A DNA stretch of 64,000 bases from Dudresnaya verticillata (GCA_977862235.1 OZ374564.1:1922001-1986000); one strand, 5' to 3'. Shown: positions 20,575 to 47,051, counted from the stretch's first letter. Notes: a model not told the origin generated them from the letters alone. Made by a program: numbers and translations.

Positions 20575-20737
20575 CTTTCTCAAGCGCCAATAGCTATTGG
20601 CTGATATTCATATTCGTTTCTAGCTTTTCACTTCGGTCCTCCTGCGTTTGCTACTTTTCCCCACACGTGCATCCTCATGGCTGTCAGCTCGACGTCATCA
20701 CCGTACTGCCTGTGCCGCATCGCCAGGCGAGGCTTCG

Positions 20738-20923
20738 AAGCCCATGATGGCATCTCACTACGCTGCGCGTTTGCAGCGTTTGCAGCAAGCCCAGGAGGGC
20801 ATCTCACTACGCTGCGGGTTTGCAGCGTTTGCAGCAAGCCCAGGATGGCATTTCACTACGCTGCGCGTTTGCAGCGTTTGAAGCAAGCCCAGGAGGGCAT
20901 CTCACTACACTGCGCGTTTGCAG
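20738..20923. repeat. 49-bp tandem repeat, ~3.8 copies
   Basis: Unit AAGCCCAGGAGGGCATCTCACTACGCTGCGCGTTTGCAGCGTTTGCAGC at 20738, 20787, 20836, 20885. Confidence 0.95.
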
Positions 20924-20945
20924 TGAGAGCGTGCATTTCGCGTAG

Positions 20946-21670
20946 TCAAACTGGACACCTCCTGTACGGCACATGCCTTACTTCCTTAACAACATTTGCT
21001 GATTGTACTACGGTGTCACTGCGCAGGGGTTTGAGGCGAGAGAGAGCCCACCGAGCGCTGAGCCCGGTCGCCGGAGGCGGGTTTCCGCGCACATGTTGGC
21101 AGCTAACCACGATGGTCGCGTTACACAAGCAGTTCGTTGTTTCGTCAGCGTGAGGGCAGCTGGGCAGTTTTGGGCACCGAATCGGACTAGCGGATAGTGA
21201 AGCAATGGGATAACACTGGCACGCCATTTCCGCTTGCAAAGGGTAAACATCACTTACTACAGAGACATCGAACGCTTGTTCTTGAGGGATAAAGCTGCGA
21301 TCGTCCACGTAGATGTCTAGGTGAAGCATGTCGTGGGTGGGGTCAGAGGGATCAAAAAAGGGCTCTTCCAGGCCAAGTTGGACACCATGATGAAGCGCAA
21401 CAGTACGAATATGAACGGCGAGCATGAGTATATACTCATATGATTCGCACACACTATTACAGTGATGCCGAGGTGATGGGGTGTTGAAGATGCATTAACA
21501 GGACGTGGTGGAGGACAACCAGTGTTTTCTGTTATCGAGGTCGATGCGGAACCCACTACAGACTGTGGTGTTGGGCATGCCCTTGTGCACCAGGCTGGCT
21601 GCATAGGTATCCTTTGACGGTAAGTGCTACGAACAGTCTCATGTTTACTACAGTACAGTAACTGTCCCAT
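20946..21670 (-). pseudogene. Cys-rich hypothetical protein (two overlapping frames)
   Basis: ORFs 21317-21670 and 20946-21452 co-oriented with neighbouring small ORFs; no recognised domain. Confidence 0.3.
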
Positions 21671-21686
21671 GGATGTCTAGGTCGTG

Positions 21687-22067: not shown

Positions 22068-22079
22068 CGCCCTTTCGAT

Positions 22080-22376: not shown

Positions 22377-22409
22377 CCGGTATTGCCCAAAAATAGATGG
22401 AGCAGACTT

Positions 22410-25295
22410 TCATGGCTCTCTATCACAACCCTCCATCATGTTAAGATCCCATGCGAAGAATGCGTTTAAGTCTCGCAGCAGGGCTGGCGGTTCCTCCGGA
22501 CCCTTAAAAGTGTACATATTCGGCCTCTCCGCGAACTCATCGCAAACTTTGAAGGCAAATACAGCCACGAGATTCTCTCCCTTCTTGCCGAGCTGCCGCA
22601 ACCCGTGCTGGTGTATTTCTGTCTTCAGTCCGTGGGCGTCGTTACCCGGTTACAGTACTGCCTTCCCAACCTTATCTGGACCACACAGCAGCCAAACGGC
22701 GTCACCACCTTTTAGTTGCGGTCGATCGCATGACAGCGGTTTCTCCCTAGGTTTTCCTGTACGTTTCCCAGCCTGTTGCTTACTTGGGGACATCACTAGA
22801 GTCTGTGATTCCCTTTCAGACTGATCAGTGCGTACCCTCTTTGTGTCCGGCTGTTTGTCTATCTGTTTTGCTGGACGCTTCTGTGCTTGGACCCCTGCAT
22901 CTTGAGACGACCCGTTCTGCTTCTCCTCTGCAATGCGGTGCAGGCGTGCACGAGCCAGTCTGTATGTTTCCGGGTTTCTTTCGACGAGGAAACACTCTCT
23001 GTCTGTCCGAACGCAGGCAATGACTGTAGTCATTGTCCCCACATGAGAGTCTAGGACTGAGCCACCTTCAGGGCAGAAGGTTGTGATTATCTCAGTAAGT
23101 GCATCAGGATTTTTCTCCTCCGTCAGAACTGGTGCCCTGCTAGTCCATGGCTTCATGAAATTGAAATTATCTCTGGGTATGGGAACAGAGGTTATCACAG
23201 CAAACCTTCGTCGCTCCTTACACGAGACGAATTGGTATAGGCTTGACAGGTCTGGAGAGAAAAAGTTCTTGGATATACCCTTGCGCCTTCCGAAGGCTGC
23301 TCCCTCCGCCCCATTCTGCAGTCCCTTCTTGCGACTTACCTGGACAGTAGTTGTGTCTTTGCAGAGCAAGAAAGGGTACTGTGGACTATCGAAATTCTTG
23401 TCGGTAAGTGCCTTTTGAAACAGCGGGAATTTCAAGAAGCTGCAGAACGGAAACACCCAACCACCCTCCTTCGCAACACGTCCACATAACTCGTAAAGGC
23501 GCTTGATGTATTCTTCACTGAAATGGTTTGCGTATGCAGTTCCAGCATTTGACATTCCCTTCGAGGTACGATACGGAGGGTCAGCAAGCACGAGGGCAAA
23601 TAGAGTACTGCATTCATTCCTGATTGATTGGTCATATTCCTCCCACTTCATCTGATATGTTCGTATCCTGAATTTGGAAGGCGGGTCCTTCTCCTCCACA
23701 TTAGAACCGGTATTCAGTCTCTCCGACTTGCGTGTTGAAGAAACAGAACGACTACCCGGTCCAATACACTCGTTAGTGATTTCATTGTTATCAGCTAATG
23801 TACGTGTGTCGTTGTCGTCTGTAGGATCCAGGACCGATTGCGCATTCTGCCTCTGCGTGTCAGTTACAGCCTCCTTGACGACTTCTGACTGCTTTTGGCC
23901 ACGAAGGCCCCCCTTCGAGTCATTTTCTTCCCCTCTTGAGGTTTTACATCAACTTCAGAACTCGTCTTATCAATCGCAGAAGCAAAAACTATGGGTTTCT
24001 CACTTTCTCCTATGTCTGGAGATGTATCTTTCCCAGAATCAGTTTCTGCTTGGAACTGGTGCTTGAATTTCTTTTCATTAAGTGGGGCTTGTTACGGGTA
24101 TTCCCTTTGATAAGCGGCTATCAATGGCTTGAGCACATCGGGGTCATTTCCGAAGTTTGCACCACCTCGTGGTCCAGCTTCGTGGAGTGAAGGAGTTTCT
24201 GACGAGTGACGTTCATAACTTCAGGCCAACTCTGGCTCTCGATAAGGCGTTCGAATTTACGTGCTTTCCTCATTGCTGCTTTCGCCCTTTCAAATTGTTC
24301 CAGAGTCTGAAAGCTGGTGACGGACCGGAAACTCTGAAGTTGATGTACTTCACGTAGTCGGTACAAAGTTGAAATCTGTATTTCTACGCCATTCTGCAGT
24401 TTGTTCCCATTCATGAAGGCGATTGCAGACTTCAGTGATGAAATGTGGATGAACGTTCTGTATACTCGGCAGTCAACCGTTCTCATTGCTCCGTCCTTGT
24501 CGAGTGTTGTCCCTTCCTTGTCTCCTGTCATCTTTGCAGCTAGATCTAGTCTCTCCTCATTTGCAATTTGTCCAATTGCGTGAATTACTCTCGTATCCAT
24601 CATACGCCTCCGCAATTTTTGGGACATTTGGTGATTTCGCAGTCTTGGCCTGTAACCTCTCCGCCTCCTCCCGCAGACCGCGGACCAGGTCAAAGCATGT
24701 AGTCTCGATAAAATATCCCTGGTCATGTTTCTCATTCCAATGTCTTGGCGGCTGCCAGAGCTCATGGACGTTGTGCCCACCCTTCAAAAGCGTTACAGGC
24801 CATGCGAAAGACTGCCAGACTGTTAGGAACTCTTCCATTAACTCCAAAATAACGCAATGTCTATGCAAGCCGTCAACAATGCCGTACCATTTCGAGCACT
24901 TGTTTGCCTTCTCCCAAGCCTCCTCCTCCGTGTACCCCTTCCCTTCCCCTTTCGTATTCTTGAAATACGCAACGATGTGACCTCGCAGAGACCCTGTCAT
25001 TTCGATGACAACTGGAGAGTCAGACCTGGCAACATACCCAATGGTCCCTTCACCGCCCTTCTTCTCTGATGATTGTAGATGAATGCGAGCTTTGAGCCGT
25101 TCCACTCCGGAGCGCACCACGGGTCTTATTGCCGTTAGTGGGAAGCACGCCCTGGGGCGCCCTGGGGTCAATTCTCATATTCACGGAACCCTCCATCACG
25201 TCAGAAAACAATGCCCTCCCCATACTTGCAGAAGAGCAATTTTGGTCCGCTTTAGACTGTGTAACAGCACCCTTTCCAGAACGTTTCTTGCCCAT
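22410..25295 (-). pseudogene. ParB/Srx-like + beta-class amino-DNA-methyltransferase + C-terminal SH3-like fusion (frameshifted)
   Basis: WYGIVDGLHRH (~24860-24874); LVLADPPY (DPPY 23571-23582); EEKNPDAL motif X; VLDSHVGTMTT motif I; FLVERNP motif II; frame continues past one stop to 22410. Motifs are seen directly; single-gene fusion is inferred. Confidence 0.8.
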
Positions 25296-26390: not shown

Positions 26391-27248
26391 ATGTGGACTA
26401 TCCAGCAAGTTGAGGCTGCATTTTTGCAGGGTCCTCATACTGCTGCCGGTATAAGTACTTCGGTACAGTACGGTCATTCTGATTACCGGGATTTGAACGT
26501 GTCCAATCGAAGATATATCCGTATTTGCATACAGAGAATGACTAAGCCTCGTACACAGCCAAAACCATTAGCTACAAGTGCTACTTTCCGTTTAAAAGCA
26601 CGCAATCGTTTCATTTCACAGACTTCCTCGACGTTACTGAGGAACAGAAATACGGCTGTACACACAGAGAAGAGGATTTCTTGCCGAAGTGTAGTCATTC
26701 CTATTACTCTCGACATGCTCATTGACCTCCCGGTGTTGCCGGACGACATACAGTCAGGTTTCTGCGCATTTCATGCCTTCATGCGCTGTGAATTGAGGCT
26801 TCGATTGGCAGAGCAGCAGCGCCGCCTTAACGGTGACTCTTTGCCATTTTCGGAACGCATAATGCGATCCTTGGAGGTGAAGAATGAAGAAAGAGTCATG
26901 GAACAGGACCGTGCTCGAGAGTTTGAGGTCGTTATGGGTCAATACGACCATGACCAGAACATGCTCACAGTGGTATACCGTGGGGGTATGAAGAAGCTTG
27001 ATTACGTATCGGGGGATGTTTTCTCCGGATCTGAAGCTCATGAAATCGATGCCGTCTTGGTCGAAGCGAGTCGCCTGGGAAGCGACCCAGTACGGGAGCT
27101 GGAGCGAATGTGCCGCCTTCTCCTGACTTGGAATTTTGCCAAAACTAAGGCAGAAGGGACTGTGGCGGTAAAGGAGGTAAGGGTGGCCCGTGCGGAGCAT
27201 GACGTGCGCGTCATGTATAAGAAAGCTTCATCGTGCAAGTCTGTTTAA
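26391..27248 (+). CDS. hypothetical protein
   Basis: Open 285 codons; globular-looking C-terminal ~180 aa from MLIDLP; no recognised domain. Confidence 0.5.
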   Translation: MWTIQQVEAAFLQGPHTAAGISTSVQYGHSDYRDLNVSNRRYIRICIQRMTKPRTQPKPLATSATFRLKARNRFISQTSSTLLRNRNTAVHTEKRISCRSVVIPITLDMLIDLPVLPDDIQSGFCAFHAFMRCELRLRLAEQQRRLNGDSLPFSERIMRSLEVKNEERVMEQDRAREFEVVMGQYDHDQNMLTVVYRGGMKKLDYVSGDVFSGSEAHEIDAVLVEASRLGSDPVRELERMCRLLLTWNFAKTKAEGTVAVKEVRVARAEHDVRVMYKKASSCKSV

Positions 27249-27327
27249 TATCGACCAAGGATGAAGTCGACCAATCAATCTGATTGCGTAGCAAGGAGTA
27301 GTACTTGGAGACGCGCGTCGGTCTTGA

Positions 27328-27935: not shown

Positions 27936-29941
27936 CAGGAGCTTGGGTCGCTATTGTTCCGCTGGGCTATATACCGTGTACGTTTTGTACCTAAATACAA
28001 GATTGGATTCATCATGCCTGCCACGTCGAATTTTCAGACACGCAAAGTTTAACCTGCTATCCTCTCGAAACCGGGACCAGCAAATTCATTCCTTCTTCGC
28101 CAAGTACTCCAGTCAATTAATACTGCACATGTTGGTATCGACGCTTGTTTCAATACATGTGCGAGCCCGAGCCCTGTATCGTGGAAGGGGAGTATGCGCC
28201 GGCAAAATGGAGTTATCAATAGTGGTATCAGAACGACTTGTCTGGGTTCTCGTCTTCATTTCAGCAACTTCGGCTGATGGTATCCCTCCCAACTGTACTC
28301 AGACCCGTTCAGGCATTACGAAACGAGCTGGACACAATTATTCTTTAAAACCAACTGAGCCGCATGGCACAGGCAGTAAACAACCGAGGTGCATTGGCAA
28401 TTGCCTATATATTACATCCTTTTCATGAAGAGGCTATCTACGCCTTGTAGGTAGAACCATACCTGCACCAGGAACCCACAATGGCAGGTGACGAGTCAAT
28501 GTGAAGTGGGTCAAAAATGTCGCCAACAGCGGAAACATGTCCCTTTCATGAGCACGTCCTGCTCACTTAATACAGTCGATTGTAAGAGCGTTGCGGCTCA
28601 CGAGTTTGCAATTTATTCGAACCCTACCATAAAGTTCCCCCATCGATTGTAAGTGCTTCAGTTATTGAGTACACTGAATTGTTGTTAAACCTGACGCGTC
28701 TGGGGAGCAAGGTCGTCGGAGTTTGGACGCTATTCTCGACCGCAATGGTAGTGGACTGCAAGCGATCCCCCTCAAGGTTGAATGAGCCTACCAAACGCCG
28801 CATTTTCCCCCAATGGAGCTTGCGATGTTTCCTCAATGGATAAGCCTACGGACATGGTTGGAACGGAGAACCTTTGGAGTGTCGACAATGTAATCGTTCG
28901 CGCGCGTGGTTAACCGGGAAACAGCTACAGGCTTATACATTTTATTATCATTACCTAAAGAACAAGTCGCTCCGCCTTCGGCGGGGGCGGCGCCGCGCGC
29001 CGCTAGACCCCGCGCCTTCGGCGCGGGACGGCACTGAGTGCTGGTATGATAATCCCAGCGCCGAAGGCAGGCGCGTGGTGTAACGGCGGTCGCGCACAAA
29101 AGTAAAGGACCAAATTAATAAATCAGGCGCACAGCAAAGGTCTCGGCTGTAAGGAGCACTATCCCGCCAATCAATAGTGAGCTTTGCTGCTGCTGCTGCT
29201 GATTTTTTCATTGGCGCTGCGGCCGTGTATTTTAGATATAATTTCGGATGCGTAGAAACAATTGTGGCGCCAAGTGGATTTCTTGGCGCATCGATATAGA
29301 ATTTTGTTTATTTTTCGAGACGTGGCCGGGCTAATACTACCCTTTGGGCGGTCATACCCCTACAAATTCTTACTATAAGGTAAACTACGTAGTGTTGGCT
29401 GCGTGTCATGGAATGGCCATACTTGTGTCTGCGACTTGTCATGACATCGGCATGTGGCGTCCCATCGTAGAGATATACGGGGGGCGGGTCGTACAGCGCG
29501 GTCGGGGAGCGACGGGCAGGGCGCGCTGACGCGGTGACGGCAGCGGGATCCACGGTGTGCACGAGGGTGGGCAACCGCGACAGCATATTTTGCCCAACGA
29601 GTTGTGCGTCGCGGGGCGGGGCGGGGGAGCGGGCGACGAGGCAGTCTGTGTGCGGTCGCGTGCACATTTGTGCACAGGCGCGCAAAGCACAGTGCACCCG
29701 TTGCACCAGAAAGCCGAAAAACGGGCGACGAGGTAGTCTGTATGCGGCGCCGAGCACGCGCGGCGCGGGCCAGATGGGCGGTGTGGCGCGCATGCAGCGC
29801 GTGCGGCCAGGGGCATGCCGCGGGCCGGCAATTTCCAATTTGGCCCAGTGCGGACCGCGGACTGGGCCGCGCGGGCCAAATCGACGCAAGAAAAGTGAAA
29901 TTCAGAATACCTGGAAATGTTTTGGGTACATTCACGCATAC

Positions 29942-30091
29942 CGCCATAACGTTCGAAGGAATGGTCCGTTAGCCAATCGGATTTCACCACCGTACTCAGG
30001 GGACGCTCTCCTTTCCAATTATATCATAAAATAGCTATTCGACTCGAGTCTGTTTTGAAAATCATATTCTGAAATCGCTCAAATGCGTGTT
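29942..30091 (+). repeat. 150-bp conserved element, copy 1
   Basis: Gapless manual alignment to 46902-47051, 87/150 identical. Confidence 0.85.
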
Positions 30092-30780
30092 ATAGATTAG
30101 TTTTGGGTTCTAAGTCCTGCGAGGAACAACTTTATGTATGAGAAGGAGCTGAATGTCGCCTGACCACATAATAAGGGTAGCAGGCTACTCGAACTATGGC
30201 AGGATGGATGCGAATGTCTTCAGTATTAATAAAAGAAGAGTGAGGCGTGTGGTACTGCCTTTGTACGCGGCATGAAGTGGCCGAAACGTTTATACGTCGT
30301 CAACCGGCAACATCATCTTGAGGTGTTTGGTTCAAGTCAGCTTGATGCCCAAGGCATCTCGGGACTCAGTTAGAGGTTTGTGAAACACACTCATCTCCTC
30401 ATCACCGCAGCTGTGGAGTATCTTCTTCTGACATGCCACGCACGCGAGGCCAGAAGCCCACCATGAAAGTCGCGTCTATCTGCTACCGTGCTGCCGGGAA
30501 CACGATGATCGTCACGTACACCATGGCCTTTGTCACCCGTTCTTCAGGCTGTCGATGCCGTCGAACGCAGGCGCCTCGCCGCTGCGCTGTTCGAACTGTC
30601 ATGATTTGCGCGGCAAGCCATAAAATGGCTGCCACAGACCACTCCCGTTCTTGGGAGCCAATATCAGAATGACCTACCGTCTGTCTTAAGCCGTACTGGA
30701 TACTTGCGGACTAACGCTACAACTCAATGGTGTGGTCTTTATTGGGAAATTACTCAATGCAGGCATGCAATCATTGCGCA

Positions 30781-31134
30781 CTAGTTTTGGTGAAGACTCT
30801 CTCGAATATTCTTCTGTACATTGACGGGGATACGCGAAGTGCTTGTTAAGCCACTAAATTCCACAAGCACCGAGCCAGCTGAAATCTTCCCGATCCATGG
30901 CGCTTGGTCATCTAAGATGTAAGGTTGATATCGCAGCCTATATGCGTCATGCCGTTCTTGCTCAATTGCTTCGTACCAACATATCTGCAGCTGCACAGAT
31001 TGTACCTTCCGGCCTCGTGTGCTCCGCAGCACCTCTTGAATCTTCGCAATGTAGAATGGGCATTCTGGAGCGCTGCCCTAATAGCGAACGCGAAATTATT
31101 GCGCGAGAATGGGACTTGTATGTCCTCCATTAAG
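30781..31134 (-). pseudogene. 3' end of Sola-type transposase gene, left of gypsy insertion
   Basis: Removing 31135-43509 joins ...DDNERDL-MEDIQVPF in frame; continues (one frameshift) PFYIAKI...ICWYE...PWIGKI...VLVEFSGLT. Confidence 0.7.
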
Positions 31135-32043
31135 TGTAGTGCCAGGGGGGGTCCCCCGTTTTCGCTTTCAAGCGTTGATATGCAGCGTCTACCGACGGAC
31201 GACCGCCAACGGCGCGCTCAACCCGTCCGCGGCGCAAACACGTCACCGACGCAAGCCGCTGGCAACTTGGGCCAGAACGGCTCGCTGGGCGTGCAGACCG
31301 CACGCCTGAACCCGGCCACTGTACGGCGCCACGCGTACGCGCATGGCGCAGTGGCGGGAACGTTCGCTGTAAGCGTGGCCCGAATCCGGATCCAATCCGG
31401 ATCCCATATCGGGATCCCATATCGGGATTAAGAGGTGTAAGGCACGCGCCTGTAAGCCTGGCGCATCCGCATCGCTGGCCCGAATCCGGACTGGATCGGG
31501 ATTGGTGCGGATCGAGATCGCTCGCGCCATGGGGCGCATGCGGCTGTAAGGAGGTAATCCACGTGTGAGTGTAAGGACTCGAGCGGGGAAGCTACGCGTG
31601 ATCTGTCAGGAGCGCGGCTGCATGACGGACGGGTCTGTCAGACGCGCCTCGGGACAACACGTGTCCCGAGTTCCCGCGTTACGCGTACATCCGCGTCGCC
31701 GCCGCTAGGTAATCCTGTACCTAGTTGATCCGTCTCAGACATCACAGTAAACCCCGGCAAGCCGGCCTTGGTCCAGACTTCCCCGTTCAGCACGCGCGTA
31801 CCCTACCGCTGCCTACGGCTAAGCGTCTACCTCCGTGCTTCCACGTCTCTACCCGTCCACGACGTGTTCCCTTTCTGTTCTCTTTTGTTCTTCTATTCCG
31901 CCTCGGGCGTTTACAGTCCGCCCAAGGCGAGCTAACCGCTCTACCGCCAGTTGCCCACGGCGAGGCCACCCATCGCCGCAGGCGTCGCTACCCACCGAGC
32001 CTCGAACTGCTCGGTGGTGCCCGTCATCGACGTTTGCACTACA
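31135..32043 (+). repeat. 5' LTR of element C (909 bp)
   Basis: About 15 substitutions versus 3' LTR by manual comparison. Confidence 0.97.
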
Positions 32044-32045
32044 AC

Positions 32046-32063
32046 TGGTCTCCCGACCTAGAA
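32046..32063 (+). promoter_or_regulatory. primer-binding site, tRNA-Tyr-like
   Basis: TGGTCTCCCGACCTAGAA 2 nt after LTR; first 10 nt complement ...CGGGAGACCA as recalled for yeast tRNA-Tyr. Confidence 0.75.
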
Positions 32064-32170
32064 GTGTGCTACGTCTCAACGAGTTACTCCGTCGTGCGAC
32101 GTCCGACCTTCCGTCTCTAGACTTCTGTCGCTAATCGTCCACGACGTTCAAGCAACTCTACGACTGCATT

Positions 32171-34728: not shown

Positions 34729-37700
34729 TAAGGGTACCAACTCCTGACACTGGGGTGTCGCACCAAGCAGAGAGGCTTCCGCCTCGAGTGCTGACACGGA
34801 AGGAGGGCCCGAACGTAGTTAACAAACACGCCGATGGGCGGGTAGACTCGTCACAGACGTCCTTAAAGCGCCCCTGGCGTAGGTACCAGCCCCCACAAGC
34901 CCGGGGACAGTTGTTCGTAATGGCCAAAAGGAACTACAAAGTATACGCCGATCTAGGCGTAACTGTAGGTACCTTGGCACGTAAACTTACTGTCCTCGAC
35001 ACGGGGGCTGGTCCGAATTTCATCCGTATTGACGATATTCCGCTAGAAGCGCGATTACGGATCGTATCCAAGAGTCTCCCCGTCATATCAGACGCTAACC
35101 ACAAGGCGATTCAGACCCGGGGCACTATCGACTTAGTCGTACGTCTCGGACGAAGGGTCGTCAAGTTGGAGTTGATCGTCTGTGAACGGCTCGCTGCGCC
35201 GGTTATACTCGGTTGCGACTTTTGCGGCCGCTTTGTCGAAGCGATTTATCCGCGGAGTCGCGAGATTGAGCTGGACGACGGCACCCGTTTCCCTATAACG
35301 CGCCTCCCGCTGCGCCGGCCCCCGTCGTACCCCCCGTTGCCAACGGAACAAGAGTACGGCACGGCCGAAGGGCGAACGTCGCCCAAGATACGCGTTGCGG
35401 AACGAACGATCATCCCGCCGCAGGCGCAAAAGTGGATCTCGTTAACGACCGAGCGAGCAGGGGTCATTACCATCCAACCGTTTGGAACGTTATATGATCG
35501 GCAAGCTTTGGCCGTTACTAACGGAGTCGCTCAAGTAGAGCCGCTGAGAGTGTTCCGGATTCTCGTCGCAAACTTCTCCCCGCGCCCGCAAGCGCTCGTC
35601 AAAGGACAAGTCGTCTCTACCGCGTTGCCACATCCCACAGCAGTGTTCCCCAGTCACATAAGTCTGGCCGATGTCCTAGGTATCACCGAGGAGCAGGCAA
35701 CGGAGGAGGAAGCGAATCAAGATTTTCGTTTTCAAACGAAGGATGGGGTAACGGCGCAGCCGGATACATTCGCTAAGTCGATCGAAGCAACTGTAGCTAA
35801 ACCTCCGTCAGTGGACGAGTTGGACCTGAGCCATCTCTCAGCCGAACATCAAGGACGGCTGAAGGAGATGCTGCGCAGGTACTCGTCGATGTGGGACGGT
35901 TCATTAGGAGAAATCGCAACCACGGAGCACTATATTGACTTGCTCCCCGGCTCCAGGCCGATTTCATCCCCGCCCTACCGCGCTGGCCCAAATCAAAGGC
36001 AACTCGCTCAAGCGAAGGTGGATCGCATGTTGCGTCAGGGGGTTATCGAACCCGCACAATCGCCATGGGCGTCGCCGGTCGTCTTCGCTCCCAAGAAGGA
36101 CGGTACACTCCGCTTCTGCGTTGACTACCGTCGCTTGAACGCGGTAACGGTACGAGATACGTACCCTCTCCCGCGAATCGACGAATGTATTGACAGCCTA
36201 GGGGAAGCGAACGTCTTCACCACCCTAGACTGCAATAGTGGTTACTGGCAGGTGCTCATCAATCCGCGGGATCGCGACAAGACGGCGTTCACGTGCCATG
36301 CCGGATTGTTCCGCTACAAGCGTATGCCCTTCGGACTTACTAACGCACCGGCCACATTTCAACGGACCCTCGATATCCTGCTTGCTGGTTACAAGTGGCG
36401 CTCATGCCTCGTCTACCTTGACGATGTGATCATCTTCTCTAACGATATCGACAGGCACTTTCCTCATGTTGACGAGATCCTTTCGACCTTGCATCGGGCC
36501 GGGGTGACATTGAAGTTGACCAAGTGCGACTTCTTCACCCCGACCGTCAACTATTTAGGCCATGTGATACGTCCGGGACGATTGGAAGTAGACCGTACGG
36601 TCACAGCCGCGTTACGCGAAGCCAAGCATCCGCGGGACCAGAAGGAATTACGGAGCTTTCTCGGATTGTGCACCGTCTATAGACGGTTCGTATCGCGATA
36701 CGCACACGTCGCCGCTTCCCTCAACAAATTGTTGAGGAAAGAACAAGACTTCCGGTTACAACCGTTCACCGAGGAGCAAGCTCGGGCATTCAGCACGCTT
36801 GTCGAAGCGGTGACTCACCCGCCCATCTTGGCGTTGCCACAGCAAGGACTACCGTACTCCGTCGATTGTGACGCGAGCGAATACAAGTTGGCTGCGCACT
36901 CTTCCAAACGCAGCCTGACGGCGAACGGAAGCCGCTTGGTTTCTGGTCACGCTCGTTAACCGCTCCGGAGCGCAACTACTCGGTATCCGAAAAGGAATGC
37001 CTAGCGGTAGTCTGGTCGATCACGACGTTGAGACCGTACCTTCAGATGGAGTCCTTCGTAGTCCATACGGACCATTCGTCGTTGAGGTGGCTCATGGAAA
37101 TCAGCGACCCCTCAGGACGGTTAATGAGATGGCGCCTTTGCCTCTCTGAGTTCGACTTCGTCGTGAAGTATAAAAAGGGGTACCTGAATACTCAGGCAGA
37201 TGCCCTCTCACGTCTACAGACGAACGGCGAAACTGTCGAGCCAATCGACGATGATATCCCGTGTTACCACGGGAGCTGCGTCAAAGACGAGGACCACTCG
37301 TCAGAGGACGGCTACGCTCACGCAGAAAGCGGTACGTCAAACGCCAAGAGCGAAGTCGATTTCTCCGAACGAGACTTCGAGGAGTTTGACCAAATGTTGG
37401 TTACCAGCGCGCCACCGGCGGATGAAGTGCTCCTCCGCCAATTGACGCATGAAGAGTTGGTGCATGCTCAGGGCAGTGACCAGTACTGTTCCGAGATCCG
37501 GAAACGTCTAGAGGACGGAAACAACCTACCGTTTGCAACGGACGAACAGGGACTATTCGTTCGGACCGTCGAGGCCCGACCCCAAGTCGTTGTACCATCC
37601 GCGTTACGCGTTCGATTGCTCCACCTCCGGAATCATGCTAAATTAGCAGGACATCCCGGAGGGCGGAAGCTGTACCATACGCTTCGACGCGAGTATTATT

Positions 37701-39465
37701 GGCTGTCTATGTCGGTGGACTGTTACGCGACCGTCCGCAATTGCGTTACTTGCGCGAAGAACCGGGTACTGATGCGAAAGAACGTGAAGGAGATGAAACT
37801 GTTCCGAGCAACCGAGCCTCTCGAGTTTGTGTCCATCGACATACGCGGGGAGCTCATACGCACTAAGCGGGGGAATAAGTTCTTACTCGTCATCGTGGAC
37901 CGGTTCTCAAAGCTGGTCCGGACGGTTCCCTTACGTAAGATTACGGCATTGGAAATCGCTAAGGCGTTTGTTCGACACTGGGTGTTTGTGTATGGCCCAC
38001 CTAAGAAGCTGTTGTCCGAAAATGGACCGCAATTTGTAGCCAAGTTGTTCCAGGACGTCTGCCGCATCTTAGGGGTGGAGAATCTCATCACTATTAGGTA
38101 CCATCCGCAGTGTAACGGCCAGGTGGAACGATTCAATCGAACCATCCTCGCCTCCCTGCGTCACTACGTAGCAGACCACCCCAGGGACTGGGATTTGTTC
38201 ACCGATGCCCTGACGTTCGCGTACAATACGCAACTGCACTCGTCTACCCACCTCGCTCCATTCGAGTTGGTGCTATCTAAGCCCCCGCGGGCATTGTCGC
38301 TGGAAGCGGAGCCGTCGCTTGAAAGCGTGCCCACTGCCGGACAGTACTACACCAAATGGCGAACCTCGCTGTCCGCATTGATGGGAACCGCTAACGCGTC
38401 GACGCGAAAACGCAGGCGCGTTACAAACGGAACTTCGATACTCGTCTGAGGAAATCGAAGGAGAACATCGCTGTGGGAGACTTCGCATTCGTGCGGAAGG
38501 AATACTTCGCCCGCGGCGGGAGCACCGATCGCTCAGAGCGCAAGCACAATCTCGCACCTGTAGCGGATGGACCGTATCGAGTAACACACGTCGACGACGG
38601 GACAGTCACCGTCGACAAGGGACGTGGCGAACGCGAACGCTTATCCCGAGACCGCGTGGTATGGGCGCCAACCCCACCAGGGCACACCGCCCCCGCAACC
38701 GTGCAACCACCGGGACCACCTGACGTACCGGGACCCACGGCCCCCACGTCAACCGACGAAGGAGTAGGAACCCCAGACACGCCACAGGCGGACCCGGCAG
38801 GAGGCACAGGGACACCGCGCAGCACGAACGACTCGCAGGAGCAAATGAATGCAACGCCACGAAGCCGCGGGTTAGCAGAGCTCTCGCCCTTTGCCGCTAA
38901 CCCCGACGACGGTGTCTCGCAATCCGTCTCCGACGAGGAGGAGGGTCCCGGCATCCGTACGCGAATGGGACACGCAACCTCGGCTTCGCCGGCTACCAAG
39001 GTAGGTCCCGCTTCGAGCGCATCGACTGACGATAAGGAAGACCGCGCTAATGCGAAAGATGCCGCTAGAAGCGAGGAACCAGTACGCAAAAGCGACGAAC
39101 CACAAACCGCTACGCAAGCGCTCGGGGCACCGACCCAGCGCCTCAGGCGATCGACTCGTCGAGTACGATTTGCCGAACCGGTGCAGACGCCCATCACGCA
39201 AGGAAGTGAGCCGCCCAAGGCGTTAGAACGACAGGATCCCACGTCTACCGCTGCAAGCGAGAAGGAGTACGTTATCGAACGGGTTGAGTCGCACGCACAC
39301 GCGGAAGACGGTGAGATCCTCTACCGCGTCAAGTGGTTTGGATACCCCGCTTCAGCGAATACCTGGGAATCCGTGTCCAGTCTACCGCGATCGCACGTCG
39401 TGCGGTATCACCGTCCGAAGCACACGCGTCTACCGCCAAACATCGACGACGCGCAACTCGGATAG
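34719..39465 (+). pseudogene. pol: pol of element C (PR, RT, RNase H, IN, GPY, chromodomain), frameshifts near 36890 and 38400
   Basis: LDTGAGPNFI, YLDD, HHCC (HAKLAGHPG...CVTC), YHPQCNGQVERFN, DGPY, EYVIERV...YRVKWFGY...NTWE. Confidence 0.97.
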
Positions 39466-39831
39466 CCCTAGTCAGGGTGGGCGCTGGAAGCGGAACACAC
39501 GCCACATCCTCATACGGATTGACGCAGACGTGCACTCGTTACGGACGACTGGGGCTGTAATCAACCAGATCAAGGACGATTGGGTTGGCAACACGCGAAT
39601 AGGCAACCCTCGTCGTTGACTCGTCGTTGACAACGGTCAAGTTTATTCGGGCTTCACAAGCGAGGGTAACCCCCGTGCCCGCATGACCTTTCACTACGAC
39701 CTACGTCGTGAGACGCGACACTAACCGTCTATGACGTATGAATCCCTCGCTCGCCGCCTCACCACGGGGCAGGCAAAGCGACACCACACGCGTTCTCGCG
39801 TTTGCTAACCGTTCTTAACGATCCAACAACG

Positions 39832-42132
39832 CTACGGCTTTTTCGTCGCAGACGGCCCAAGTGGGGCATCATCCCCGACGCCATTGGCGGATTCTCTTAA
39901 CGCCTCTTCGTAGAGGTCGTCTTCCGTCACAGACGGTGCGCTCGCAGCAGGGGCAGGAACGGACCGCAAGGGACCCGCCACAACCACTGCTGTCGAAGTC
40001 GCGACATCCGCCGCTGGCGACGCACCTGTCTCACAATCCGCCTTAGGCGACGACTGTTCGTCAACCGCCATAGGCGCAACGTTAGAGTCATTATCCGCCT
40101 TAGGCGCTACACCAGGAAGCTCACTCGCCTTTGGCGGTGGAGCATCCTCAACCGCCTTGGGCGAAGTCGACGGCCCCGGCACCTCCGGTGACGGGACCGC
40201 ATTAACCGCCAAAGGCGTTGAACGATCAACATCCGTCACCGACGAAGAGGCCACTGGAGCCTGCGGAACCGCCGTAGGCGCTACCACCGCAGTCGCCTTT
40301 GGCGGACTTTTGTTAGCAACGTCAGTGGACGCAATAGCGGACGGACCCGCACAACCCGCCTTAGGCGACAAAGGCTTTTTCGCCACTCCGTCATTAGACG
40401 CCACACCTTCGTCGTTAGAAGGCGCAGTCGCAACGACGGTCGACGCCGGAACCGCAGCAACGCTGGGCTGCAGAGTAGCCAGAAGCGAGTGCCCGAGGGG
40501 CGTCGTGGAGGTTCCGCCCGACCCGTCAGTGACGACACCGGTGGCTCGCAGGAATGCGAGCACCGTGCGGCGCTGCTCCTCAATCCATTCGGGCACTGCG
40601 GGAGGGCGATTCGCACCGTCAGCGACGTTGGACAAGCCGCCTTGAGGCGTAACTGCAGAACTCGCCATGGGCGCAGCCATGATGGCATCACCATCACCGT
40701 CATTGACGGGAGCCGAGAGATCCAACGGCACAACCGACGGCAAGCCAACAGGCACCACAGCCGACGGTCCTACCGCCGCTGGCGAAATCGTCGCGGGGGC
40801 TGTCGCCCCCGCAGAAAGCTCAACCGCCATAGGCGTAACGACGTCTGTCCCAGACGAGTTAACCGGTCCGCTGTTAGCGTGGAACGCATCCTCCTCCGCC
40901 ATCAAGGCGCTCAAGTGGGGTGGGAAATCCCCCGCAAAGTCGCAATTCTTGCGCAACCCACGTGGGTGATTCGCTGGCGTGAAGCGGTCCGTACGACGAT
41001 GGCTCTCAGCGATGTTCTCCGTCGTAAGACGTTTGGTCCACGGGTTGTACCATACCCAATCGCCACAGGCGGAATGATTCCTACTCATCGCGTAACGCGG
41101 ACGGTTTGCCTTATGGCGCCGGTTTCCCGGCGGCACAGCTGGCGGGTCGTCCCAGTTGACGTTATCCGCCACATGGCGTAAATCCCAGAACTCTTGGCAG
41201 TTCCTGGCACCACCCAACACTTCGGTCAAATCAAGCCCACCAAGGAGGCTGACTACGCGTGGCGGCACATAATAGAGGCGGAAGGTGTCATACACCTCCC
41301 ACATCCATGCGTAAGTTACGTTGACGACCCACTCGGTGAAAAACACGATCCAACATCGGGAGTACGGATCCGTCCGCAACTCGGAGCCTATATACGTGAC
41401 ACACGGAGGCAATTCAGCCGCAAAACCCTCGCAGACCTCAAAGTCCCGCCACATCGGCGGGACGCGAATGAAGCAATGCGGCAACTTTTCCCGCTCAATG
41501 CGATCGACTTGCGTATCTTGATACGGTACAAAAACGCCTTTGCGGCGGCGCGTTTCGCATTCTCAACGGACGCAGCGCTCCCAATAGAAGGTGCCCGTCC
41601 TATGCAAGTATCGGAAATCCGCTTTCAAGCGTACACCAAGGAGGTTAGCCTCCTGAAGCACCCGCGGCTCAGCCGAAACAGCCACATGGCTTAACGACAA
41701 CGTCCCAAGACGGTCCCCATAACCAACCTCGCCATTTGTGCGGTACTGCCCTGCGTCAAATTCAAAGACGGTGGGCGTCAATACCGACCCCGGGTAGCGG
41801 GTAAACCGCCGATACACGTCAACGAGGAAACGCGCATGTGCATCTGCACGCGTCTGGCCGGCGGCAATACGCAGCCAACCCCTCGGAATGGCGCACCGAT
41901 GGCGCCACTCGTTCGTCCACACGACGGCCAGGGGCAACTCCCCTGGCAAAAATCCGTTCACAGCGTAATGGGTGATGAGATCCTCGTGTCGCAGGGCCTC
42001 CTGGTCGAACCAGGGGGCCCGCGAGAATAATCGCGCATCGTTGCGGGGCGTCCTCCCGACAAAGTCGAAGGGGGACGGATACACCGGCGCCGCCGAAGGC
42101 GCAGCCACTTGCAGGCCATTGAACTGCGCCAT
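39832..42132 (-). CDS. antisense accessory ORF of element C (767 codons, one in-frame TGA at 41563-41565)
   Basis: ORFs 41563-42132 and 39832-41484 share a frame; Trp/aromatic-rich N-terminal domain, Pro/Ala/Ser-rich tail; homologs in elements A and D. Confidence 0.8.
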
Positions 42133-42584
42133 TACGTCTGAGACGTTGAGTAATCACACGCCACTGGCGAACTTCACGCGATACGTCAACGACGGTCTCG
42201 GACTCCGAAGTCGAGTCAACTACGCCAAAGGCGGAAGCAAACAAGGCGCACGTCAACGACGTTGGATTGGACAACGCCGAAGGCGGACCTCAAAGAAACG
42301 CCCTAGGCGATAAGCGCACACACGCGTGCACAGGATACGACGTCAATGACGGGGTTTCACGCACGCCACTGGCGAAGTTAGTCAACAACACGTCTTCGAC
42401 GGGAGTTGTTGCTGCGCCAACGGCGGGTGGGCAACTGAACGTGCGTCTTTGACGGGGCTCAACTAACGCCAAGGGCGGGCAAACGCAGACGCGAAGACGC
42501 GGGTGACCGACACGATCGGCACTGGAAGAGACGCAGATGCGGGAAAGCAGGCAGGCTGAAGCAGGTTGACGTGTTCGCGTTTTC

Positions 42585-42595
42585 GGAGGGGGTCG
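42585..42595 (+). promoter_or_regulatory. polypurine tract of element C
   Basis: GGAGGGGGTCG directly before 3' LTR. Confidence 0.75.
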
Positions 42596-43504
42596 TGTAG
42601 TGCCAGGGGGGGTCCCCCGTTTTCGCTTTCAAGCGTTGATATGCAGCGTCTACCGACGGACGACCGCCAACAGCGCGCTCAACCCGTCCGCGGCGCAAAC
42701 ACGTCACCGACGCAAGCCGCTGGCCACTGGGGCCAGAACGGCTCGCTGGGCGTGCAGACGGCACGCCTGCACCCGGCCACTGTACGGCGCCACGCGTACG
42801 CGCATGGCGCAGTGGCGGGAACGTTCGCTGTAAGCGTGGCCCGAATCCGGATCCAATCCGGATCCCATATCGGGATCCCACATCGGGATTAAGGGGTGTA
42901 AGGCACGCGCCTGTAAGCCTGGCGCATCCGCATCGCTGGCCCGAGTCCGGACTGGATCGGGATTGGTGCGGATCGAGATCGCTCGCGCCATGGGGCGCAT
43001 GCGGCTGTAAGGAGGTAATCCACGTGTGAGTGTAAGGACTCGAGCGGGGAAGCTACGCGTGATCTGTCAGGAGCGCGGCTGCATGACGGACGGGTCTGTC
43101 AGACGCGCCTCGGGACAACACGTGTCCCGAGTTCCCGCGTTACGCGTACATCCGCGGCGCCGCCGCTAGGTAATCCTGTACCTAGTTGATCCGTCTCAGA
43201 CGTCACAGTAAACCCCGGCAAGCCGGCCTTGGTCCAGACTTCCCCGTTCAGCACGCGCGTACCCTACCGCTGCCTACGGCTAAGCGTCTACCTCCGTGCT
43301 TCCACGTCTCTACTCGTCCACGACGTGTTCCCTTTCTGTTCTCTTTTGTTCTTCTTTTCCGCCTCGGGCGTTTACAGTCCGCCCAAGGCGAGTTAACCGC
43401 TCTACCGCCAGTCGCTCACGGCGAGGCCACCCATCGCCGCAGGCGTCGCTACCCACCGAGCCTCGAACTGCTCGGTGGTGCCCGTCATCGACGTTTGCAC
43501 TACA
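42596..43504 (+). repeat. 3' LTR of element C (909 bp)
   Basis: Direct repeat of 31135-32043. Confidence 0.97.
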
Positions 43505-45747
43505 TTAAGTCTCTCTCGTTGTCGTCGGGAAGGAACTCTAGCTTGTGCTCTTCCAGCCCTTCCCTTGAGTATTTCCCATTGGTTTCCAAGATATCTTCTA
43601 GATTCCAGTGAAAGGGTTCCATCCTGTCCCGATAGATGTCGTCCCGCAACTTCCGAAGCTCTTCAATCTTTTTTATGTCCTTCATCCGCCCTTCTTCAGA
43701 ACGAATGAGGTCTCAGACTTCTTTCATATCCGGGGGAGCACGGGCCCGAGTTGGAGGGGTTTTGGACAACTCAGGGGGAACAAAATGGAACCCTTCTGCG
43801 CATTGTATGTGAGTAGGGGTTTCCATTCACCGTCGCACTGTATGCGAGCCTGGCACCCCGTCTTGAAACGAGCATTAACTCCTTCCGGCTCTCCTGCCAC
43901 CCTAAAGAACCAGAAGAACCTGTAATGTGAAAAGGTTTCAACCTTCCCTACACACTTAGAATCCTGACAAAGACCTGAGAAGTTTGGAATGTGCAGTATT
44001 CTTGCAACATGAGGCTCCGGCTGGTAGGATTTGCTCAGCTCCTCTATCATGTCATCCATAGTGATGGCATCTCTTGTCTCCAACCTCCTTGAGGTACAAC
44101 TGAAGGTCTGATCAATATAAGAATGAGCGTGTCCTATCGGCAGAAATGAGGCTTGCACCTCTTGAAAAACGCCCCACGCTACTAGACTTTCCAGGTAGGA
44201 GAAAATGAACCTGTTCTTGTTCTCCCTGGTACAGTTGTCCATCTGCAGCAGAAGCGTTGGTTGCATATTCCCACTTGCCTTCCTGAGGCTAAGCGATCGG
44301 TGTATTGCCTCTATTGCATGATTGGCACCGGATTCGTACTCCGCCGTCATGACGAAAAGGCACAACTTATTCTTAGGTCCGTGATCCAGAACGCCTATAC
44401 GTTTCACCTTGATTGCGTGACCTACTGTAACTTTCGTATTCACAACAACGTGCGGCAGTCCGAACGCAGACTGGTCTGCTCCGTCTACCACAATAGAACA
44501 ATGCTCTTCAGGAAACATTATAGCTTTTTCCGAAGTCTTCTTGTACTGCACACGCTCCTTCCAGACCATAGACAGATGCTGGCGCCTGCGCATCCTAAAC
44601 GGCCTCCCCGCCCGCTTGTCGGTCCCCGCCTTGGCAAGTCCATCGCGAATCTCCTCAAATTCTGTGCACTTCGTAAAGCGACGTACTTTTTGGACCTTAA
44701 TGTGGGACCATTGTGCCTTCCACGTAGCGTAAAAGTAGCTCGCGCTTGCAGGTGTCTCGCCACTATACAAAAGGCCCTGGTCTGTTGTGAATTGCTCGTA
44801 CACAGTCTTCCTGTCAAATGATGGCAGATGTATCTGTCCAGCATATGGTCTGCAGTAGCTTCAGCAATCCTCTCGGGGTACGAAACGATTTTGTCCCGTT
44901 GTTCAGAATTTGCGTCTCGTGGAGTGGCAGCGGAGAGGGACAAAGAGCCGCCAAACGTCTTGACAGACGTTTGCAAGTCCCGTGAAAACCCAAATGCTTT
45001 CTCTAAGAAATTGTAGCACACCAGAGCACCATTGAACCGGTAAAACCTGTCAGGCTGGAGCAGGCGGAATAGATAGTCCCTCCTTTCGTTCTTTTCCATC
45101 ATCAGAACACGACGAGCTTCGGCCTTGAGTTAAACCTGCTCACAGGCCTGGAAACATTTCTTTGTAGAACAAAACTTCTTGCGCTCCCAGTCCTCCGTGT
45201 CTATCCTCGCTAGTGCAGCCTTACGCCTTATCATCAAGGAATTCTCACCCTTCTCGGGCCTCTTACTAACAAGTGAATGATAACGATAAACTTGCTTCTT
45301 AACGGCACCAATTCCCCTCGTACCGTTTCCTATACGCTCCTCAGAACCAACACGATCAGCTGCTCCTCCACTCTCTGCGTTCTCACCTCGGTAATCCAGG
45401 TCAGAGAGTATTTCTGTTCCATCTGCCACCTCCTCGGCAGGTGCTGCCACTTCATCAGCAGATTCTGTCTGTGCGCCACCCCGCGTGACAAGGTCCATAT
45501 TGGATTCCGAACCCTCACCTTCTTCGCGACGGGCTTTCCCCTCACTTGCTGCCACCACCGCCACCTCCACTTCATCGTCCTTGTGATCCCCAGCTTCCTG
45601 TTCTGCTCCTGCTATCTGGTCTGCATCCTGGCCTGGCCCTGCTTCGTGGTCTGGCCCTAGTTATCCTAAGGTCCCTGGTTCCGCTTTGGCCATAACGTTG
45701 TCGTCTTCAGTGATCCCCTTCTTCTCGTTTTGAATAATGTTGTTCAT
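43505..45747 (-). pseudogene. Sola-type DDD transposase, 5' and catalytic part (frameshifted)
   Basis: FCSTKKC, LVCYNFLEKAFG, FTKCTE, IVVDGADQ, LQMDNCTRENKN, SFLPIGHAHSYIDQTFS; subgroup and start codon uncertain. Confidence 0.8.
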
Positions 45748-46901
45748 GTTGTTCTGCTCGGTTCTGTTCAGTGCAGATGCGGCGAAAAAGGGTATTGTGA
45801 ATCCAAGTACGGTCACGGTTGAGATTGTTAAAAAGGGTGTCATGGATATGACTAGAGAGTAAGAAAACGTTACCATCGCGATTCTTCTACAGAATCGCAG
45901 CGCAAAGATTGCCGCCGAAACGGTGATGTGAGAGACCCTGCCTCTGTTCATCAGTCGCTTGAAGAGCGTCCGGAAGGAGCTCCTTTCCCAGCGGGGCGCG
46001 AGGTGTAAATGGCATGTATTGTGTCCTTGTGAAGAATATGCAGATGTTACAGAAGAGAACTACTCGTTCCCAGCTCCTGCATACACGCTTGCAACAACCG
46101 CAGATGATATAGTCATTGGATACGTTAAGGCGGAACAGTCGTTACTAATTCGCAAGCTCACCTGTCGCAAATAGGACAAACTGGATGTACCTATTGTGTA
46201 GTCAAAGTAATAGTCACTTCGTTGTTTGCGAAGCACATAAATGGCTCTCACGCGGCAGCAAAGCACCAAACAGACACACGTTCGCGCAGTATGCGTGCCA
46301 CGCGCCCATCGAAGCGCGCATACCCCGTTCGCGGACGTGCACCTCGAAGCACACATACGCTACTCGCTAGTAGATACACATTTCCACTTGGGAATATGAA
46401 AGACTCCCATGGCCCTCGTTGTTTCCTAGTTAGCAACCACCTGAAGGGCCATACCGCGAGACGTCATTCAGCTCGTTGTATTCATAACTAAACTGCATAA
46501 TGGCGCTTTTGAAGAACATAGCATAACGTTGTATCCAAGGCGGCCGTGTTAGCATCGATGCTGGATCCAGCGTCTCACAAACCACAGGAAGAGTGTGTGA
46601 TGCAGCGAGTAGGAGCGCCGGATAGGAGCGGCTGGCAGGGGCGAGAGCAGTGGTGTGGCGAGTGCACTGTCGGCCCTGGGGGCGAGCTGGAGCGACAAGC
46701 AGATGCGCGGAAATCAGGTCGGAGAGCAGGAGCGGCGGTTAGGAGCGGCTGGCAGGGGCGAACGTAGTGGTGCGGCGATTGCGCTGGCGGTCCTGGGCAA
46801 GCGCAGGGCGAGGGAAAATCTAATTAAAATTGTTTTACAGAAATTCGGAAAAGTGTGAAACTTTCGGAAACGTTTGGGGGGTGTACAGACTGTGTTTAGT
46901 G

Positions 46902-47051
46902 CGCCGTAACTTCTGAACTAGTTACGCTACAGACAAACGGATTCCATCGTTGTTCCCAGCGCACGCTCCCGGTTCCACAGAGCGAAAGAAACCGGGGTAC
47001 AATTTGGTACTGTTTTGAAAAGTTGATTCTGAATATCTCGAAAGTAGTGTT
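46902..47051 (+). repeat. 150-bp conserved element, copy 2
   Basis: Gapless match to 29942-30091, same orientation. Confidence 0.85.

What the first reader, a model, noticed from the sequence alone, without database searches (positions are those of the whole stretch)
20630..47051. Candidate large cargo-carrying DNA transposon: Sola-type transposase plus ParB-MTase plus unknown ORFs
With element C removed, a ~14-kb non-retroelement block remains. It holds the transposase, the co-oriented ParB-MTase gene, five unknown ORFs, hairpins and a repeated 150-bp motif. Inference: one element or co-travelling unit. No terminal inverted repeats or TSD were found, so chance adjacency of two elements is possible.
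Basis: inference. Interest (0 to 1): 0.75.

Follow-up and report, generated by a model that had tools for sequence, protein, structure and literature searches.

The report
Decayed Sola transposon with methylase cargo
This stretch holds the broken remains of a jumping-gene family that carries, beside its cutting enzyme, a bacterial-style DNA-methylase gene predicted to mark the element's own DNA; the same design was described in a brown seaweed in 2025, and here it is likely two related pieces side by side rather than one clean element.

Summary
The parts are real. With the Gypsy LTR element (31134-43504) removed, 14,046 bp remain. They hold a dead DUF7869 (Sola-like) transposase, split by that LTR element, and a co-oriented, broken ParB-like/beta-class DNA amino-methyltransferase gene. 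The genes are genuine partners. The methylase family lies beside this transposase family in 6 of 10 fetched loci with enough flank. Seven of 12 long methylase contigs have the exact length of a transposase contig. Distances in the two families co-vary (Mantel r 0.85), and both window genes group with the same relatives. The '150-bp motif' is a transposon end: both copies stop at GTGTT (30091, 47051), and the second cuts an LTR. The copies are 60% alike and face the same way; no left end or target duplication was found. The block is therefore more likely two sibling units, nested or end to end, than one 14-kb element. Only one unknown ORF (26391-27245) looks coding. The design is known (Sola1-1_Ec32, Ectocarpus). 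I found no report of three points: family-wide co-divergence, a ~100-aa domain found on either partner, and a changed catalytic motif in 29 of 47 methylases.

The parts
20315..20654 (.). AT-rich hairpin region with an array of AGCT-centred palindromes; candidate subterminal or binding-site array (role inferred)
   Evidence: 11 AGCT in 20315-20630, densest in the window (mean 0.9 per 310 bp); fold z -4.3; internal inverted repeats; contexts
20738..20923 (.). 49-bp tandem repeat, 3.8 copies
   Evidence: TRF score 323, 92% matches
22416..25295 (-). Broken accessory gene: ParB/Srx-like domain (25156-24575), helical region (24600-24150), beta-class amino-methyltransferase (about 23594-22953, DPPY motif intact), shared ~100-aa C-terminal domain (22718-22431); 4 frame changes and 2 in-frame stops against the intact homolog P0248
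   Evidence: Pfam PF01555 E 9.9e-11; tblastn of P0074 and P0248; family HMMs; fold matches of the homolog's model
26391..27248 (+). Open ORF of 285 codons from the first ATG, divergent from the methylase gene; no known family; the only unknown ORF with coding signal
   Evidence: Codon score +15.2, other frames negative; no hit in Pfam, PHROGs, ESM Atlas (42) or the 53 loci (58)
28961..29100 (.). GC-rich hairpin cluster; possible left limit of a 1.1-kb insert ending at 30091 (chance-level support only)
   Evidence: Fold z -5.1; starts AACA after AAAG versus ATAG after 30091, but is 1 of 2 such positions in 20630-29700
29738..30091 (+). End A: TIR-like terminus ending GTGTT, with GC-rich short repeats inside it (29630-29757)
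   Evidence: Alignment to end B; repeat D5; next four bases ATAG
30766..31133 (-). C-terminal, BAH-like part of the transposase, cut off from the rest by element C
   Evidence: tblastn hits of many homologs at 31089-30766, best E 2e-12; BAH-fold matches for this domain in the model of P0007, Z 7.3, rmsd 2.8, 81 aligned
31134..43504 (+). Element C: nested Gypsy/chromodomain LTR retrotransposon, younger than the DNA transposon; 5-bp TSD TTAAG
   Evidence: LTRs 98.4% identical; RT, RNase H, integrase and chromo domains
43505..45660 (-). Main body of the DUF7869 (Sola-like) transposase; 2 frame changes, 2 in-frame stops; conserved acidic residues kept except one position conserved in at least 90% of 34 aligned sequences
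   Evidence: Pfam PF25273 E 3.7e-43; 71 homologs, up to 55% identity; conserved columns; lesions
46667..47051 (+). End B: TIR-like terminus ending GTGTT, with a duplicated 74-bp GC-rich unit inside it (46607-46797); a true insertion junction
   Evidence: LTR homology of the flank runs to 47055, four bases (CATG) from the terminus; repeat D15
47052..47207 (-). Flank: first ~150 bp of an LTR of the neighbouring Gypsy element, truncated at end B
   Evidence: Aligns to the starts of four other LTRs in the window; its remainder was not found left of the block

Best explanation
The block holds a dead DUF7869 (Sola-like) transposase gene and a broken ParB-like/DNA-methylase gene whose families sit together in other genomes, and it is likely a composite of two sibling cut-and-paste units, each with its own right end (30091 and 47051), rather than one element. 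Unit B (30092-47051 without element C, 4,584 bp) carries the transposase; unit A (about 20315-30091) carries the methylase gene and one unknown ORF. A likely inserted into, or next to, the 3' end of B, and both left ends were lost or lie outside the window. How the intact family would work (inferred, untested): the RNase H-fold DDD transposase cuts at AAC...GTT termini and makes 4-bp duplications. The accessory protein would load through its ParB-like domain on palindromic arrays in the element and write N6-methyladenine (N4-methylcytosine is possible) on the element's own DNA, shielding it from host silencing or gating transposase access. Family members with a changed catalytic motif would act as binders only. 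Both genes here are inactive.
For: Shown: linkage in fetched loci. Of 53 loci, 10 have at least 2.9 kb on one side of the transposase and 6 of those 10 carry a methylase-family gene: L001, L007, L015, L017 with the ParB-type gene divergent; L021, L023 with a methylase-like/SET gene convergent. Indirect: 7 of 12 methylase-bearing contigs of at least 6.5 kb have exactly the length of a transposase-bearing contig, about 0.005 expected each. Co-divergence over 10 pairs: Mantel r 0.85, p 3e-4; the window's identities to partners correlate (rho 0.82, p 0.004); both window genes group with pairs P0007/P0074 and P0231/P0248 (FastTree support 0.96 in each tree). Folds of homolog models: transposase core matches Mos1 and retroviral integrases (Z 8.0-8.7); methylase matches CcrM Z 24.3, rmsd 3.1, 235 aligned; N-terminus matches ParB-N 5k5d Z 8.5, PadC Z 8.0, KorB 6.7, sulfiredoxins 6.3 and 5.6, SerK 5.9. 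Two same-polarity ends, 60% alike, both stopping at GTGTT; end B abuts a cut LTR. [quoted passage not shown]
Against: No second copy from this genome was available, so neither unit's boundaries are shown. No left end or TSD was found for A or B. Co-divergence may partly reflect shared host ancestry. Four of 10 loci with long flanks (L005, L012, L043, L050) have no methylase-family gene. L001, L007 and L015 are close kin, as are L021 and L023, so the 6 are about 3 independent cases. No TIR pair was seen in 10 related loci either. Sequence searches did not assign the ParB domain (only DndB in 4 of 52 and DGQHR in 1 of 52). Transposase fold Z values are middling and Foldseek gave no E below 0.001. 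No activity, expression or methylation data.
Confidence: 0.55

Rival explanations
1. One autonomous cargo element of about 13 kb: right end 47051, transposase, unknown ORF, ParB-methylase gene, left end near the 20315-20654 hairpin array, with a 1.1-kb non-autonomous relative (28961-30091) and element C nested inside.
For: 28961 starts AACA after AAAG and 30091 is followed by ATAG, a 3-of-4 match to a 4-bp TSD, at a sharp hairpin boundary. 28961-30091 shows no clear coding signal. Both genes have the same closest relatives, one pair lying on equal-length 11.2-kb contigs. Fixed nested insertions are common in giant algal transposons.
Against: The 28961 signal is 1 of 2 such positions in 9 kb and has no inverted similarity to end A (score 27 against 25.6+-2.9). 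No inverted match of end B near 20315-20900 (score 26 against 25.4). Co-orientation differs from the divergent layout in 4 of 4 orientable ParB-type loci and from Sola1-1_Ec32.
Confidence: 0.3
2. Chance adjacency of unrelated elements in a repeat-packed region: a plain Sola-like element beside a methylase-carrying element of another superfamily (Plavaka/EnSpm, Mutator, Zisupton), which red algal accessory genes are known to ride.
For: The window is dense in repeats; accessory genes move between transposon families in red algae; unit B alone is 4.6 kb, like a simple Sola (4,606 bp for Sola2-1_Ec32).
Against: The end next to the methylase unit is homologous to the transposase's own end; both genes have the same nearest partners; no other transposase was found in the block.
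Confidence: 0.08
3. The repeated ends and hairpins belong to rolling-circle (Helentron/HINE-like) elements that captured or flank the genes, which would explain ends without inverted partners.
For: No TIR pairs here or in 10 loci; the hairpin cluster at 28961 resembles HINE ends (recalled, not tested); a host ion-channel fragment lies just left of the block.
Against: No Rep/helicase in the ORFs scanned; the end motif itself does not fold better than shuffles (z -0.4 and -0.5); its terminus resembles the Sola1 terminus.
Confidence: 0.05

Closest known systems
Sola1-1_Ec32 of Ectocarpus (PMC12477816; passages, section 5 part 2 and rows of supplement file 1 read; FASTA supplements and figures not readable)
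   Same: Sola-type transposase plus an accessory ParB-like/N4C-or-N6A methyltransferase of about 1,000-1,100 aa; long imperfect ends beginning AAC and ending GTT; nested insertions; pseudogenised genes.
   Different: There the element is complete (21,549 bp, TIR pair, 4-bp TSD) and the accessory gene is on the opposite strand. Here both genes are broken and co-oriented, two same-facing ends occur, and no left end is seen. Sequence homology to Sola1-1_Ec32 could not be tested.
Plavaka accessory genes PAG2 and PAG3 of Bostrychia and other red algae (bioRxiv 10.1101/2025.02.11.637652; passages and section 8 read; supplements not seen)
   Same: Transposon-borne PF01555 methylase and ParB-like domains, inverted-repeat arrays near the gene, proposed self-modification; loci L021 and L023 show the methylase-like/SET layout of PAG2 beside a DUF7869 transposase.
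   Different: PAG2 is methylase+SET and PAG3 is ParB+2OG oxygenase; here ParB and methylase are one protein. The carrier is Sola-like; 'sola' has 0 hits in that main text, but its Supplemental Table 6 of PAG-carrying elements was not seen and may list such elements.
Beta-class DNA amino-methyltransferases (CcrM, M.BceJIV, M1.HpyAVI, RsrI, PvuII; rotifer N4CMT) and phage ParB-terminase locus methylases (PMC4738411, passages)
   Same: Same fold (Z 19.7-24.3) and motif order IV then I; weak hits to phage methylases, some beside terminase genes.
   Different: Only 15-27% identity; fused here to ParB-like, helical and C-terminal domains; target base and site unknown.
VANDAL anti-silencing transposons and TET/JBP-carrying fungal transposons (passages)
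   Same: A transposon carrying a protein that acts, or is thought to act, on epigenetic marks of its own DNA.
   Different: Different transposases and different chemistry (loss or oxidation of 5mC, not addition of an amino-methyl mark).

Membership tests
Sola (Sola1) DNA transposons | RNase H-fold transposase with a DDD-type acidic triad (definition recalled; the founding papers were not held) | tested here: met
   Invariant acidic columns D535/D538, D618, D660 over 74 sequences, present in the window copy; model matches Mos1 and integrase cores, Z 8.0-8.7
Sola (Sola1) DNA transposons | Sequence similarity to curated Sola1 transposases | not testable with these tools
   No Repbase set; only Pfam DUF7869; 'DUF7869' gives 0 papers. 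The label Sola-like rests on recalled motifs and on the terminus resemblance.
Sola (Sola1) DNA transposons | Paired terminal inverted repeats | tested here: not met
   Two right-type ends only; no inverted partner in 64 kb. Expected in a truncated relic, so it lowers 'intact element' more than family origin.
Sola (Sola1) DNA transposons | 4-bp target-site duplication | tested here: inconclusive
   CATG after 47051 and ATAG after 30091 have no convincing left partner
Sola1-1_Ec32-type cargo elements | Accessory ParB-like plus N4C/N6A methyltransferase gene linked to the transposase | tested here: met
Sola1-1_Ec32-type cargo elements | Accessory gene on the strand opposite to the transposase | tested here: not met
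   Co-oriented in the window; opposite in L001, L007, L015, L017
Beta-class DNA amino-methyltransferases | Motif IV (D/N/S-PP-Y/F/W) before motif I; Rossmann-type fold | tested here: met
   DPPY intact in the window; canonical in 18 of 47 family members, changed in 29; CcrM Z 24.3
Beta-class DNA amino-methyltransferases | SAM-dependent methylation of adenine N6 or cytosine N4 in DNA | not testable with these tools
   Needs an assay on an intact homolog
ParB/sulfiredoxin superfamily | ParB-N/Srx fold with a DG-x-H-R-like motif | tested here: met
   Model residues 5-169 match six ParB/Srx-family chains, best Z 8.5 and 8.0; motif variants. Middling Z; sequence profiles gave only weak hints.
ParB/sulfiredoxin superfamily | CTP binding and clamp loading at palindromic sites | not testable with these tools
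   Inferred only
Plavaka/EnSpm elements with the PAG1-3 cassette | Plavaka transposase plus PAG2 (methylase+SET) and PAG3 (ParB+2OG oxygenase) | tested here: not met
   Transposase is DUF7869; no SET or oxygenase hit in the window ORFs scanned

The most novel reading that the evidence does not exclude
Sola-like transposase and ParB-methylase form an old, co-diverging two-protein system across algae and other eukaryotes: the accessory protein clamps onto palindromic arrays in the element and writes a bacterial-type 6mA mark that licenses or protects it. A shared ~100-aa domain sits on either partner but, in the 6 inferred pairs and the window, never on both, as expected of a module needed once per element. 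Most lineages (29 of 47) have turned the methylase into a non-catalytic reader or shield. This would be a transposon-encoded, sequence-specific adenine-methylation system in eukaryotes.
Probability: 0.3. Interest if true: 0.75.

Novelty: new member of a known kind. Interest (0 to 1): 0.42.

Why it matters
Transposons that bring their own chromatin or DNA-modifying enzymes are rare, and none of the algal ParB-methylase proteins has been assayed in the papers I read. This copy is dead and adds little by itself. The family survey around it is useful: it gives intact, compact candidate pairs (L007, L017; P0231/P0248, P0007/P0074), shows co-divergence, and separates catalytic from non-catalytic members, which makes the self-methylation idea directly testable and could point to a source of 6mA or 4mC in algal genomes.

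Tried and rejected
No genome held and no sequencing run was listed, so copy number, empty sites and expression were not tested. Search for longer methylase homologs by word index found none among 3,645 candidates; the HMMER search from the ParB-like piece found them. Viral contigs: no relative for three queries; a fourth was not run for lack of a conserved stretch. GTDB gave 1 contig (L053), without cargo. TIR/TSD searches among all candidate ends were at shuffle level; the 19-nt inverted match 20589/30021 is not significant (27 against 25.9+-3.5). A two-copy profile of the end motif hit only L003 weakly (E 5e-4). Unknown ORFs: no hit in Pfam, PHROGs or the loci; the ESM Atlas was blank for 26322-27245 and did not answer for the ParB-like domain. 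The shared domain recalls the C-terminal domain of plant En/Spm proteins (recalled), but 0 of 20 proteins scanned matched such a Pfam family and no fold row covered it, so it stays unassigned; the wide fold search of the transposase model could not be run. hhalign against one bacterial ParB was negative. Literature searches; 'Sola + Chondrus crispus + DNA transposon + methyltransferase' gave 0 papers. Earlier findings by place and by sequence were empty. Frameshifts as assembly errors cannot be excluded, but in-frame stops in both genes and the LTR insertion show real decay. The host was not identified; an alga, likely a red seaweed, is an inference.
Full report
Setting. The window is eukaryotic, repeat-packed DNA: several Gypsy-type LTR elements and an ion-channel gene fragment surround the block. 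I used relatives from other genomes instead. The host is unidentified; an alga, likely a red seaweed, is my inference.

Anatomy. Element C (31134-43504) has 910-bp LTRs differing at 15 positions and a TTAAG duplication. It lies inside the transposase gene: homologs align both to 45660-43505 and to 31089-30766. Without it the block is 14,046 bp. The transposase matches Pfam DUF7869 (E 3.7e-43) and has 71 homologs of 663 aa or more, up to 55% identical. It has 2 frame changes and 2 stops. A model of homolog P0007 (pLDDT 78.7) matches Mos1 and retroviral integrase cores (Z 8.0-8.7) and, at the C-terminus, BAH domains (Z 7.3); Foldseek alone gave no E below 0.001. 'Sola-like' rests on recalled motifs; the defining papers were not held.

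The second gene runs from about 25295 to 22416 on the same strand. Its first piece finds 224 relatives at E 0.001 or better (best 150 listed). Of 43 long ones scanned, 35 match PF01555 at E 0.001 or better, and they align in order across all the window's pieces, so this is one gene broken by 4 frame changes and 2 stops. A model of homolog P0248 (pLDDT 80.8) matches beta-class amino-methyltransferases (CcrM Z 24.3, rmsd 3.1, 235 aligned) and, over residues 5-169, ParB-N, PadC, KorB, sulfiredoxins and SerK (Z 8.5 to 5.6). Sequence profiles gave only weak hints for ParB. Motif IV is DPPY in the window copy, canonical in 18 of 47 members and changed in 29.

Unknown ORFs. A codon model trained on the two known genes picked the true frame in 7 of 7 held-out pieces. 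Among the unknown frames only 26322-27245(+) scored as coding; the model missed the ion-channel fragment, so it is a rough filter. That ORF has no hit in Pfam, PHROGs, the ESM Atlas or the 53 loci.

Ends. The repeated motif (29942-30091, 46902-47051) is 60% identical, E 7e-6, extends inward to about 350-385 bp (score 85 against 27+-4), and stops in both copies at GTGTT. Right of 47051 lies the first 150 bp of an LTR whose homology runs to 47055, so 47051 is a real insertion junction. Sola1-1_Ec32 has AACCG-CGGTT termini and 282-bp imperfect TIRs, which fits reading the motif as a Sola1-type end. Both copies face the same way, and no inverted partner or TSD was found in the 64 kb. One weak candidate for a left end of a 1.1-kb insert (28961) is 1 of 2 such positions in 9 kb. 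The hairpin region 20315-20654 holds 11 AGCT sites, the densest cluster in the window; a role as binding array is inferred.

Are the genes partners? A metagenome scan with the transposase alignment gave 52 loci and GTDB one more. Ten of the 53 have at least 2.9 kb of flank on one side; 6 of these 10 carry a methylase-family gene. In L001, L007, L015 and L017 it is the ParB-type gene, divergent from the transposase; in L021 and L023 it is a methylase-like/SET gene, convergent. L005 has a SET gene only; L012, L043 and L050 have none. These 6 are about 3 independent lineages. Among methylase proteins looked up, 12 lie on contigs of at least 6.5 kb and 7 of the 12 have exactly the length of a transposase contig (8748, 11236, 11185, 8751, 12040, 7943, 12959), about 0.005 expected each. 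One further match (4,334 bp) is too short for both genes and is chance; the DNA of these contigs was not seen. Over 10 pairs (6 by length, 4 seen) distances co-vary (Mantel r 0.85, p 3e-4; 0.71, p 0.001 without the outlier L017). The window's identities to partners correlate (rho 0.82), and both genes group with P0007/P0074 and P0231/P0248. Host ancestry may contribute to this signal.

A shared domain. Eight of 71 transposases begin with the ~100-aa domain that ends many of the methylases and the window gene; they fall in more than one clade. In the 6 length-inferred pairs and the window it is on the methylase in 5 cases, on the transposase in 1, absent in 1, and never on both. It has no Pfam match.

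Interpretation. The genes come from one lineage of Sola-like cargo elements, so pure chance is unlikely (0.08). The layout is best read as two sibling units, nested or end to end, with left ends missing (0.55); one 13-kb element with a small nested relative remains possible (0.3). The mechanism, cut-and-paste plus self-directed adenine (or cytosine-N4) methylation through a ParB-like binder, is inferred from folds and from the literature, not shown.

What is known. PMC12477816 describes the 21.5-kb Sola1-1_Ec32 with a 1104-aa ParB-like/methyltransferase gene on the opposite strand and proposes self-modification (passages, section 5 part 2, rows of supplement file 1; FASTA files unreadable). 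The Bostrychia preprint describes mobile accessory genes PAG2 and PAG3 on Plavaka, Mutator, Zisupton and Fanzor elements (passages and section 8; supplements not seen, and its Supplemental Table 6 may bear on novelty). PMC6431247 mentions 16-20-kb En/Spm families in Chondrus (passages); PMC4738411 and PMC12730594 were read as passages. Unchecked notes of this scan report the same design in animals and a moss. I found no report of the co-divergence, the shared domain or the motif loss in searches, which cover only the held library.

Verdict. Interest 0.42.

Noticed in passing
window 18982-20022 (-): Fragment of an ion-channel gene (Pfam Ion_trans E 1.6e-8; two-pore-channel-like by recall), cut at about 19010 by an LTR fragment and lying just left of the hairpin array; may be captured host DNA.
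   Followed up: partly
window 8288-8364: Perfect 32-bp inverted repeat with a 13-bp loop inside an LTR-like stretch.
   Followed up: no
window 47052-55400 (-) and 55428-58600 (+): Further Gypsy elements 70-84% similar to element C, in both orientations; the 3' LTR of the minus-strand element is cut at end B and its remainder is not in the window.
   Followed up: partly
L017 3-1091 (-) and 1095-5099 (-): In a 34% GC locus an intact 1,335-aa frame with ParB-like and methylase domains (DPPF) is divergent from the transposase and followed by an ORF ending in a Sir2-like motif (PHROG E 0.008): possible second chromatin-enzyme cargo in another host group.
   Followed up: partly
L021 4404-6101 (-), L023 4516-5970 (-), L005 2948-3493 (+): SET-domain genes beside DUF7869 transposases, next to or fused with methylase-like sequence in L021 and L023, like PAG2 of red algal Plavaka elements.
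   Followed up: partly
L001 2366-2480, L017 5034-5329, L021 4001-4312, L023 4131-4410, L014 2460-2814: Long hairpins or palindromes between or right after the genes in related loci; candidate binding arrays, MITEs or, for L014 at a contig end, an assembly artefact.
   Followed up: no
L053 (GTDB contig in a Bacteroidia MAG): A eukaryote-type DUF7869 transposase relative on a 4.8-kb contig of a bacterial MAG; likely binning contamination, not checked.
   Followed up: no
window 25763-26706: A short motif (about 14-22 bp) recurs four times between the methylase start and inside ORF 26391-27245 (D2, D3, D10); significance not tested.
   Followed up: no
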